This document shows positions 61,701 to 64,000 of a stretch of DNA of 64,000 bases, piece by piece. How positions within the stretch are numbered: position 1 is the stretch's first letter; each line of letters begins with the position of its first letter. The position numbers are program-made. Source of the stretch: Escherichia coli (lineage in GTDB: Bacteria > Pseudomonadota > Gammaproteobacteria > Enterobacterales > Enterobacteriaceae); NCBI RefSeq assembly GCF_048403405.1, contig NZ_CP183129.1; one strand, 5' to 3'.

Positions 61701-64000
61701 CAGCTTTCATGTCCTGCATACGACGAGTTGCTGCTTCAATATCATCTTCTTCTTTCACTTTGCTGGTTTTCAGCAAAATAGCAGAGACAACGAAGGAGAC
61801 AGCCATCGCCGCACACACACCCGCGATGTTAGCGAAATAAGCACCTTTTGGTGTCATCGCCAGTACCGCAAGGATAGAACCCGGAGATGCCGGAGAAACC
61901 AGACCACCGCCCAGGATAGTCAGCGTGAACACGCCAGTCATACCACCGAGGATAACGGCCAGAATCAGACGCGGATTCATCAGCACATACGGGAAGTAGA
62001 TTTCGTGGATACCGCCCAGGAAGTGGATGATTGCCGCACCGCCCGCAGACTGTTTAGCGCTACCACGACCAAAGAACATGTACGCCAGCAGCACGCCCAT
62101 ACCCGGACCTGGGTTAGCTTCAATCAGGAAGAAGATGGATTTACCCAGTTCATGGGACTGCTGAATACCCAGCGGCGAGAAGATACCGTGGTTAATGGCG
62201 TTGTTGAGGAACAGGATTTTCGCCGGTTCAACAAAGATAGACGCCAGCGGCAGCATGTCATGGACAACCATGAAGTTAACGCCCGCAGCCAGCATTTTGG
62301 ACAGGGCTTCAACAATCGGGCCAATGCCGAGGAATGCCAGAATAGCGAGGATCATCCCGATGATGCCTGCGGAGAAGTTATTCACCAGCATCTCAAAACC
62401 GGATTTGATCTTACCGTCTACCCAGCGGTCGAAGTGCTTAATGCACCAGCCGCCCAGCGGACCTGCAATCATAGAGCCGAGGAACATCGGCATGTCTGCG
62501 CCGACGATAACGCCCATGGTGGTAATGGCACCGACTACGCCGCCACGTTCGCCGCCTACCAGCTTACCACCGGTATAACCGATCAGCAGCGGCAGGAGAT
62601 AAGTGATCATCGGCCCGACCAGCTTCGCCAGCGTTTCGTTCGGTAACCACCCTGTTGGAATAAATAACGCGGTGATGATACCCCACGCGATAAACGCGCC
62701 GATATTTGGCATCACCATGTTGCTGAGGAAACGACCAAAGCTTTGCACTTTGATCTTAATATCGGATGACATAAAAACACCCCTTCTTATGTTTGCTGTC
62801 GCGCAGGCTGGAAGCCCGAGGTTTTTTGTTAATGTGGCGGCAGAGGTAGCCGGACCTTGTAGATACTGCGAAATCTGGCACTGAATCGGTTAACTGTCCA
62901 GTCGACGGCCTTTTGTGTGATATCAGTCACATAAATATAGGGGGTAGAGAGGTAATTGACGTGATGCTCATCACAAAACTCTTGTGTAAAAAAGCAACAA
63001 GGCGGCGATTTTCGCTAAAAATGGCATTTAAATGTGAGTGATGTCACATTTTTGTTTTGATGGTTTGTTGAATTTTTGTGATCTGAATCACAAGATATTT
63101 TCTTACGGCGTTCACCTGATGTGATCTACAGCATGTTATGCCTTCGTCATGAAATCGTTATGTAACTAAGCAACTCATCACCTCTTAAAATTATTCTTTG
63201 GTGTTATGGCGAGAATCGCGAACCCGGATTATTGTCAAAATATCAGCCTGACTCCCTTCTGGCTGCCAGCCAAAAAACAACACCGATAAACGTGAATCCG
63301 AGGCAGATATGTTTCTAAACTATTTCGCGTTGGGAGTGCTGATCTTCGTCTTTCTGGTGATTTTTTATGGAATCATCGCGATACATGACATCCCTTATCT
63401 GATTGCCAAAAAGCGCAACCATCCCCATGCCGACGCTATTCATACGGCGGGCTGGGTGAGCCTGTTTACTCTACATGTTATCTGGCCGTTCCTGTGGATC
63501 TGGGCGACGCTCTATCAACCGGAGCGCGGCTGGGGCATGCAGTCACATGTTGCGTCGCAAGAGAAAGCGACTGACCCGGAAATCGCCGCACTTTCTGACC
63601 GAATTTCCCGGCTGGAGCATCAACTCGCCGCCGAGAAAAAGACTGACTATTCCACGTTCCCGGAGATCTAAATATGGATCTATTGATTGTTTTAACTTAC
63701 GTGGCGCTGGCGTGGGCGGTCTTTAAAATCTTCCGCATTCCGGTGAATCAGTGGACGCTGGCGACGGCGGCGCTGGGAGGCGTGTTTCTGGTGAGTGGTT
63801 TGATTTTGTTGATGAACTACAACCACCCTTACACTTTTACCGCGCAAAAGGCAGTGATAGCGATCCCCATCACGCCACAGGTGACGGGAATTGTTACTGA
63901 AGTCACTGACAAGAATAATCAGCTTATTCAAAAGGGCGAGGTGCTTTTTAAACTCGACCCGGTTCGTTACCAGGCGCGAGTTGACAGACTTCAGGCTGAC

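What the first reader, a model, noticed from the sequence alone, without database searches (positions are those of the whole stretch)
62916..63092. Four CRP consensus sites within 180 bp upstream of mtlA
Three perfect TGTGA-N6-TCACA sites and one near-perfect site are packed into the mtlA promoter region. The mannitol operon is known to be under strong catabolite control through multiple CRP sites; the density of perfect palindromes here is notable.
Basis: partly seen in the sequence, partly recalled or inferred. Interest (0 to 1): 0.2.

Follow-up and report, generated by a model that had tools for sequence, protein, structure and literature searches.

The report
Known CRP site array of mtlA
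This is the well-studied control region of the E. coli mannitol operon, where five evenly spaced binding sites for the sugar-sensing regulator CRP switch the operon on and also act as a landing pad for its repressor MtlR; it is real, conserved and already described.

Summary
Window 62916-63092 holds three exact TGTGA-N6-TCACA sites, the only three in 64 kb (0.02 expected), plus a one-mismatch site.

mtlA is on the minus strand (62772..60859), so the array is upstream of it. The window is E. coli. The sites align base for base with K-12 sites CRP5 to CRP1, and their centre-to-centre spacings of 44, 73, 44 and 43 bp match the published positions -58.5 to -262.5.

Published work (Ramseier & Saier 1995, as cited; Lee et al., NAR 2026) shows that CRP activates through these sites. 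It also shows that MtlR, which has no DNA-binding domain, docks on pairs of CRP dimers 43-46 bp apart.

My own tests agree. Thirteen other Enterobacteriaceae species keep the 44-73-44 spacing, ten of them with CRP1 a further 43 bp upstream. Half-sites are 91% conserved against 44% for the N6 cores. Across E. coli strains no half-site position varies, while the N6 cores vary at about the neutral rate. MtlR here is identical to K-12.

Verdict: already known, low interest.

The parts
62916..62931 (-). CRP5, a perfect site (TGTGACTGATATCACA read in the mtlA direction), centre 62923.5 = -58.5. It is the promoter-proximal, class-I-like site and is essential in K-12.
   Evidence: role from PMC13421365.
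62960..62975 (-). CRP4, 9/10 match (TGTGATGAGCATCACG), centre -102.5, 44 bp from CRP5. Essential in K-12. Forms an MtlR-docking pair with CRP5.
63033..63048 (-). CRP3, a perfect site (17/22 match to the extended consensus), centre -175.5, 73 bp from CRP4. Loss of it causes a partial defect in K-12.
63077..63092 (-). CRP2, a perfect site, centre -219.5, 44 bp from CRP3. Essential in K-12. Its N6 core is invariant in the 11 E. coli alleles compared.
63120..63135 (-). CRP1, a weak site (7/10; CATGCTGTAGATCACA in the mtlA direction), centre -262.5, 43 bp from CRP2. Dispensable and normally unoccupied in K-12.
   Evidence: In strain GPEC1054 an IS21 insertion separates it from the promoter.
62895..62900 (-). 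mtlA promoter -35 hexamer TGGACA. The surrounding CTGGACAG is invariant in 14 species.
   Evidence: The position is inferred from the published site-to-TSS distances.
62872..62881 (-). Weak -10 hexamer CAGATT (62877..62872) preceded by an extended -10 TG (GTGCCAGATT). GTGC-AGATT is kept in all 14 species; two have G at the remaining position (GTGCGAGATT).
62865..62865 (-). Inferred mtlA transcription start (±1 nt), giving a 93-nt 5'UTR.
   Evidence: Inference: CRP5 centre 62923.5 minus 58.5, using positions from PMC13421365.
62880..62893 (+). Cra (FruR) box ACTGAATCGGTTAA, an exact match to RSTGAAWCSNTHHW. It sits in the -35/-10 spacer (-28..-15).
   Evidence: 2 such matches in 64 kb. Cra repression and binding near the -10 box of mtlA is reported in PMC5888115.
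60859..62772 (-). mtlA (EII-Mtl, 637 aa; 2 aa differences from K-12).
59616..60764 (-). mtlD (mannitol-1-phosphate dehydrogenase; 1 aa difference from K-12).
59029..59616 (-). mtlR (195 aa), 100% identical to K-12, including the CRP-contact residues R167 and L178.
   Evidence: residues.

Best explanation
The region is the operator-promoter of the E. coli mtlADR operon. Five cAMP-CRP binding sites (CRP5 to CRP1, centred at -58.5, -102.5, -175.5, -219.5 and -262.5) lie upstream of a weak, extended -10 promoter. With cAMP, CRP dimers occupy CRP2 to CRP5. CRP5 recruits RNA polymerase in a class-I-like way, and the upstream sites are also needed for activation. The 43-44-bp spacing of neighbouring sites sets two CRP dimers at the relative angle needed for a dimer of MtlR to bridge them. 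MtlR has no DNA-binding domain; once docked it blocks CRP's activating surfaces and represses the operon. When mannitol is transported, dephosphorylated EII-Mtl pulls MtlR to the membrane and repression is lifted. Dephospho-HPr (glucose present) competes with EII-Mtl and restores repression. A Cra box in the promoter spacer adds a further layer of repression. Shown here: the sites, their spacing, their conservation, the constraint on them, and an intact mtlR. Taken from the literature on K-12: CRP binding, activation, MtlR docking and sequestration. Inferred: that the same holds in this strain.
For: Searches show three perfect sites and one 9/10 site clustered far beyond chance. One search gives spacings of 44/73/44/43 bp. 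One search shows alignment with K-12 and no change in any half-site. (PMC13421365) report five CRP sites at these positions, EMSA supershifts with MtlR only on pairs 43-46 bp apart, loss of docking with MtlR R167E or L178A, and chromosomal site mutants in which CRP2, CRP4 and CRP5 are essential. Searches cover a scan of species-representative genomes for two perfect sites 34-60 bp apart. All 13 Enterobacteriaceae species keep 44-73-44, and ten also show CRP1 at 43 bp with at least 8/10 matches. One search shows half-sites 91% conserved (37 of 50 columns invariant), against 44% for N6 cores and 57% for inter-site DNA, with no indels in 13 of 14 sequences from CRP1 to the -10. Searches show 0 of 50 half-site positions polymorphic in E. 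coli, against 20.7% of 4-fold synonymous sites (P=2.6e-5). One search shows MtlR identical to K-12.
Against: Nothing was measured in this strain. The MtlR-on-CRP docking model rests on one recent study (in vitro EMSA, an AlphaFold3 model and in vivo mutants). The same laboratory failed to detect an MtlR-CRP interaction in 2017, without DNA. How the far-upstream sites activate transcription is still unexplained in the paper. CRP5 at -58.5 is 3 bp off the canonical class I position of -61.5. This strain carries N6-core differences from K-12 in CRP3, CRP4 and CRP5, for example TGTGAC instead of TGTGAT in CRP5, which could shift affinities. My genome scan required one perfect pair, so the conservation of that pair is ascertained. 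The spacing and quality of the other sites are not.
Confidence: 0.85

Rival explanations
1. The sites are simply a redundant stack of CRP activator sites (a plain class III promoter) that gives steep catabolite control, and their spacing has no role in repression.
For: Site mutants lose activation. A crp deletion abolishes growth on mannitol. In 2017 no MtlR-CRP interaction was detected.
Against: Redundancy would not hold 44-73-44 fixed, with no indel in all but one sequence, across 13 species while the N6 cores and much of the spacer DNA change. EMSA shows MtlR supershifts only at 43-46 bp, and a malK operator re-spaced to 44 bp gains MtlR binding. In the genome sample, pairs at 44 bp are almost exclusive to mtlA.
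Confidence: 0.1
2. The array, or its distal part, mainly serves the divergent yibIH promoter on the + strand.
For: CRP1 and CRP2 lie 180-230 bp upstream of the yibI ATG (63309). Divergent promoters that share CRP sites are known, for example malE/malK.
Against: No sigma-70-like promoter was found on the + strand between the array and yibI. DNA beyond CRP1 is the least conserved part across species (41%). At least five species (L014, L017, L025, L032, L085) keep the full array although no yibI homologue was detected in the available upstream DNA. In strain GPEC1054 an IS21 element separates yibI and CRP1 from the array.
Confidence: 0.04
3. The cluster is a chance or repeat-derived feature (a tandem duplication or mobile repeat) with no regulatory meaning.
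For: None beyond the repetitive look of the four palindromes.
Against: Shuffles expect 0.02 perfect sites in 64 kb against 3 observed. There is no tandem repeat, and similarity is confined to the CRP sites themselves. Both the cross-species and the within-species footprints are strong.
Confidence: 0.01

Closest known systems
E. coli K-12 mtlADR operator-promoter with five CRP sites (Ramseier & Saier 1995 and Figge et al. 1994, both as cited in PMC13421365; Lee et al., NAR 2026, PMC13421365)
   Same: Same locus. The half-sites, the five site positions and spacings, the promoter hexamers, the Cra box and the MtlR protein are all identical.
   Different: There are 12 substitutions in 536 bp. Five of them fall in the N6 cores of CRP3, CRP4 and CRP5, and none in a half-site. 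This allele is a minority one: only 178 of 5404 genomes are at least 99% identical to it.
CytR-CRP repression complexes (deoP2, cdd, udp)
   Same: A repressor is held at the promoter through protein-protein contact with two DNA-bound CRP dimers and blocks CRP-dependent activation (discussed).
   Different: CytR is itself a DNA-binding protein with its own operator between the CRP sites. The CRP spacing in those promoters is about 52-53 bp (my own knowledge, not tested here). Here the spacings are 43-44 and 73 bp. Only two isolated 7/8 CytR octamer matches, 76 bp apart, were found. MtlR has no DNA-binding domain.
malEp-malKp divergent control region with several adjacent CRP sites
   Same: A multi-site CRP array in a sugar-transport control region.
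   Different: The tested malK pair is 34 bp apart and does not recruit MtlR unless re-spaced to 44 bp. That array serves two divergent promoters together with MalT.
Mlc sequestration by dephospho-EIICB-Glc
   Same: The induction logic is the same: a repressor is pulled to the membrane by the dephosphorylated PTS transporter.
   Different: Mlc binds DNA directly. This comparison concerns the partner proteins, not the DNA array in the finding.

Membership tests
cAMP-CRP binding site | Match to the palindromic core TGTGA-N6-TCACA | tested here: met
   The five sites score 10/10, 9/10, 10/10, 10/10 and 7/10. Shuffles expect 0.02 perfect sites in the window.
cAMP-CRP binding site | Selective constraint falls on the two half-sites and not on the central six bases | tested here: met
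   Across 14 species, half-sites are 91% conserved and N6 cores 44%. Across E. coli alleles, 0 of 50 half-site and 11 of 30 N6 positions are polymorphic, against a neutral benchmark of 20.7%.
cAMP-CRP binding site | cAMP-dependent binding of CRP protein | not testable with these tools
   Shown by EMSA for K-12 fragments covering -287 to -33. The half-sites here are identical to K-12.
CRP-dependent (class III) promoter | A weak core promoter with a proximal CRP site near -61.5 plus further upstream sites, and transcription that depends on crp | tested here: inconclusive
   The -10 hexamer CAGATT matches 3 of 6 and carries an upstream TG. CRP5 sits at -58.5, 3 bp off the canonical position. Dependence on crp comes from the literature only.
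MtlR-CRP anchoring operator (Lee et al. 2026) | Adjacent CRP sites 43-46 bp apart centre to centre | tested here: met
   The pairs are 44 bp (CRP5-CRP4), 44 bp (CRP3-CRP2) and 43 bp (CRP2-CRP1). No other pair of sites with at least 8/10 matches lies 30-80 bp apart in the 64-kb window.
MtlR-CRP anchoring operator (Lee et al. 2026) | A cognate MtlR carrying the CRP-contact residues R167 and L178, encoded in the operon | tested here: met
   The window's MtlR is 195/195 identical to K-12. The residues are defined.
MtlR-CRP anchoring operator (Lee et al. 2026) | [quoted passage not shown] | not testable with these tools
   EMSA and in vivo mutant data exist for K-12 only.
CytR/CRP nucleoprotein repression | Tandem CRP sites about 52-53 bp apart (figure from my own knowledge) flanking a pair of CytR octamers (GTTGCATT) | tested here: not met
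   The spacings are 44, 73, 44 and 43 bp. Only two isolated 7/8 octamer matches, 76 bp apart, were found.

The most novel reading that the evidence does not exclude
Spacing may not be the only thing the inter-site DNA contributes. Short blocks between the sites are conserved across Enterobacteriaceae: ACCCCCTAYATT at -80..-69 between CRP4 and CRP5, a T-tract followed by ACAC at -130..-119 in the 73-bp gap, and AACAAA at about -200. Inter-site DNA as a whole is also less polymorphic in E. coli than synonymous sites (12/140 against 81/391, P=0.001). These blocks could be sites for a further protein, or DNA-shape elements needed for remote activation or for MtlR docking. The published model treats the spacers as sequence-independent.
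Probability: 0.25. Interest if true: 0.3.

Novelty: already known. Interest (0 to 1): 0.1.

Why it matters
The finding itself adds nothing new. The five-site CRP array of the mannitol operon has been described since the 1990s (papers as cited in PMC13421365), and its spacing-dependent use as a docking platform for MtlR was published in 2026. It is useful as a positive control, because the first-stage reader picked out a real and unusually dense regulatory element from raw sequence. The conservation and polymorphism data gathered here independently support the published view that both half-site identity and exact spacing are under selection. They also point to conserved spacer blocks and an invariant 5'UTR that the published model does not yet explain.

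Tried and rejected
1. N6 cores as mutational or diversifying hot spots. Eleven of the 35 segregating sites among 11 E. coli alleles fall in the 30 N6 positions (binomial P=2e-6 against the regional mean). I rejected the idea after measuring a neutral benchmark in the same strains. Of the 4-fold synonymous sites in mtlA and yibI, 20.7% are polymorphic, against 36.7% of N6 positions (Fisher P=0.06). The cores are roughly neutral and the rest of the region is constrained.

2. Origin by tandem duplication. There is no tandem repeat and no similarity outside the CRP sites.

3. A structured RNA in the 5'UTR. Rfam gave no hit and folding of the UTR is not better than shuffles (z=-0.16).

4. CytR or Fis sites between the CRP sites. 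There is no CytR octamer pair, and no match with one mismatch or fewer to a simple Fis pattern. The literature does report Fis repression.

5. Use of the array by the divergent yibI promoter. No promoter-like site was found, and the array persists where yibI is not the neighbour.

6. The original papers (Figge 1994, Ramseier & Saier 1995) are not in the library. Their content is cited only through PMC13421365 and PMC5320558.

Full report
**Observation.** The window holds exactly three perfect TGTGA-N6-TCACA palindromes, at 62916-62931, 63033-63048 and 63077-63092. Dinucleotide-preserving shuffles expect 0.02 per 64 kb, and none of 100 shuffles reached three. A one-mismatch site, CGTGATGCTCATCACA, lies at 62960-62975. 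When up to two mismatches are allowed the window as a whole is at chance level (23 found, 27 expected). What is unusual is therefore the local cluster of top-quality sites. The 637-aa ORF on the minus strand at 62772..60859 is mtlA, followed by mtlD and mtlR. yibI runs divergently from 63309.

**Identity of the locus.** The 536-bp mtlA-yibI intergenic region is present in 5404 of 5426 complete E. coli genomes. It is 100% identical to that of an O139:H1 strain. Against K-12 MG1655 it differs at 12 positions, none in a CRP half-site.

The site centres are 62923.5, 62967.5, 63040.5 and 63084.5. A fifth, weaker site (TGTGATCTACAGCATG, 7/10) at 63120-63135 is centred at 63127.5. The spacings are 44, 73, 44 and 43 bp. 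These are exactly the distances between the five characterised K-12 sites CRP5 to CRP1, at -58.5, -102.5, -175.5, -219.5 and -262.5 (PMC13421365).

Working back from those positions puts the transcription start at about 62865 on the minus strand. The -35 hexamer TGGACA is at 62900..62895. The weak -10 hexamer CAGATT is at 62877..62872 and is preceded by a TG. The 5'UTR is 93 nt (inference, ±1 nt).

**What is known about how it works.** The following comes from the literature on K-12.
- The mtl control region has five CRP sites and CRP is essential for transcription. Fis and Cra repress (citing Ramseier & Saier 1995 and others).
- Lee et al. (NAR 2026) showed that MtlR, which lacks a DNA-binding domain, supershifts CRP-DNA complexes only when two adjacent sites are occupied and lie 43-46 bp apart.
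- The CRP3-CRP4 pair (73 bp) does not recruit MtlR unless it is shortened to 44 bp. A malK operator gains MtlR binding when re-spaced to 44 bp.
- MtlR R167E and L178A lose docking and lose repression.
- Chromosomal site mutants show that CRP2, CRP4 and CRP5 are essential, CRP3 contributes, and CRP1 is dispensable and normally unoccupied.
- Induction occurs because dephosphorylated EII-Mtl sequesters MtlR at the membrane. [quoted passage not shown]

**Independent tests made here.**

*Cross-species scan.* I scanned the species-representative genome collection for two perfect CRP sites 34-60 bp apart.
- Seventeen pairs are 44 bp apart, and 16 of them lie next to an mtlA homologue. These comprise 13 Enterobacteriaceae species, one Orbaceae and one Actinobacillus. 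The one exception is in an actinobacterium and is probably chance.
- A peak at 46 bp comes from tandem repeats in a Tannerella MAG.
- All 13 Enterobacteriaceae species have CRP2 to CRP5 in the 44-73-44 arrangement. Ten also show CRP1 a further 43 bp upstream with at least 8/10 matches. Only one perfect pair was required by the search.

*Alignment of 14 upstream regions.* In 13 of the 14 sequences the alignment needs no gaps from CRP1 to the -10; one sequence has a 7-column gap just downstream of CRP1. Half-site columns are 91% identical to the window (37 of 50 invariant). N6 cores are 44% identical, inter-site DNA 57%, and DNA beyond CRP1 41%.

*Polymorphism within E. coli.* I compared the window with ten other alleles of the region. 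One of these is cut short by an IS21 insertion, so the category counts below come from the ten full-length alleles.

| Category | Polymorphic positions | Fisher P against 4-fold sites |
|---|---|---|
| CRP half-sites | 0 of 50 | 2.6e-5 |
| N6 cores | 11 of 30 | 0.06 |
| Inter-site DNA | 12 of 140 | 0.001 |
| Core promoter (-1..-50) | 2 of 50 | 0.003 |
| 5'UTR | 0 of 93 | 1e-8 |
| Upstream of CRP1 | 10 of 173 | 3e-6 |
| 4-fold synonymous sites, mtlA + yibI, same strains | 81 of 391 (20.7%) | benchmark |

The N6 excess looked at first like a hot spot. Against the synonymous-site benchmark it is not significant, while every other category is significantly below neutral. The cores therefore drift and the rest of the region is constrained.

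*Partner proteins.* MtlR in the window is 195/195 identical to K-12, including R167 and L178. MtlA differs at two residues and MtlD at one.

*Other checks.* No tandem repeat or spacer similarity suggests an origin by duplication. No other pair of sites with at least 8/10 matches lies 30-80 bp apart anywhere in the 64-kb window.

**Rival explanations.**
- A merely redundant activator stack does not explain the indel-free spacing that species keep while sequence around it changes. It also does not explain the near-exclusive association of 44-bp pairs with mtlA.
- Use by the divergent yibIH promoter is unlikely. No promoter-like site was found on that side and the DNA beyond CRP1 is poorly conserved. 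The array persists in at least five species in which no yibI homologue was detected upstream.
- Chance is excluded.

**Comparison with known systems.** This is the K-12 mtl operator itself and not merely something like it.
- The nearest analogue in mechanism is CytR-CRP anti-activation. CytR, however, binds its own operator between CRP sites that are about 52-53 bp apart (my own knowledge). No CytR octamer pair is present here.
- The malE/malK array resembles it in form but has a different spacing and does not bind MtlR.

**Caveats.**
- Nothing was measured in this strain.
- The MtlR docking model comes from a single recent study. An earlier attempt by the same laboratory to detect an MtlR-CRP interaction without DNA failed.
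- How the distal sites activate transcription remains open.
- The transcription start coordinate is inferred.

**Verdict.** The feature is already known and of low interest. The most novel reading still open is that the conserved spacer blocks carry sequence-specific function beyond spacing (probability about 0.25).

Noticed in passing
window 62880-62893 (+): ACTGAATCGGTTAA is an exact match to the Cra/FruR consensus RSTGAAWCSNTHHW, and only 2 such matches occur in the 64 kb. It sits in the -35/-10 spacer of the mtlA promoter. This fits published Cra repression and ChIP-exo binding near the -10 box (PMC5888115).
   Followed up: partly
window 62773-62865 (-), mtlA 5'UTR: The 93-nt 5'UTR shows no polymorphism among the E. 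coli alleles compared (0/93 against 20.7% at synonymous sites, P=1e-8). It is 81% conserved across 14 species and includes a small hairpin, CGGGCUUCCAGCCUG, whose stem appears to covary. There is no Rfam hit and overall folding is not significant (z=-0.16). This points to post-transcriptional control that has not been described.
   Followed up: partly
window 62934-62945, 62984-62995 and 63062-63069: There are conserved blocks between the CRP sites: ACCCCCTAYATT (-80..-69), a T-tract plus ACAC (-130..-119) and AACAAA (about -200). Inter-site DNA is also under purifying selection in E. coli (12/140 against 81/391, P=0.001). The published model says that only spacer length matters.
   Followed up: partly
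L130 (E. coli GPEC1054), equivalent to window 63108/63109: An IS21 element is inserted between CRP2 and CRP1. It separates CRP1 and yibI from the mtlA promoter. This is a natural variant consistent with CRP1 being dispensable.
   Followed up: partly
window 62916-63048, N6 cores of CRP3, CRP4 and CRP5: The central six bases of CRP3, CRP4 and CRP5 each occur as 4-5 haplotypes among 11 E. coli alleles, while the core of the essential site CRP2 is invariant. The overall rate is about 1.8 times the synonymous-site rate, which is not significant (P=0.06) with this small sample.
   Followed up: yes
L116 2345-2418 (Kosakonia cowanii); also L013, L016, L028, L031, L042 and L107: A second conserved pair of perfect CRP sites, 57-58 bp apart, occurs in several Enterobacterales. 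I examined only the Kosakonia locus. There the pair lies just downstream of atpC and directly upstream of a 22-codon ORF (MKLINKIIAMFSNMNVSFGTFNH). The matching E. coli DNA ends at atpC.
   Followed up: partly
PMC7858067 (K-12 long-term stationary-phase evolution): A 1-bp insertion in the mtlA/yibI intergenic region became fixed in one evolved lineage. The position is not given in the text. If it lies between CRP sites it would change the spacing that is critical for MtlR.
   Followed up: no
window 60765-60858 (mtlA-mtlD intergenic): The spacer between mtlA and mtlD contains a REP-like GC-rich palindromic sequence. Its reading frame extends the mtlD ORF upstream with '[19 protein letters not shown]'.
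   Followed up: no
window 51646-56874 (-): A 1742-aa ORF lies a few kb downstream of the mtl operon, beyond yibL (58162-58524). No ORF of this size is annotated in the part of the K-12 neighbourhood I retrieved. It was not examined.
   Followed up: no
L059 (Actinobacillus sp. GY-402) 4575-4674; L018 (Orbaceae) 6639-6698: Outside Enterobacteriaceae, mtlA homologues (67-71% identical) also carry perfect CRP pairs 44 bp apart, but closer to the start codon. In Actinobacillus there are three perfect sites spaced 40 and 44 bp, and a 38%-identical mtlR homologue downstream.
   Followed up: partly
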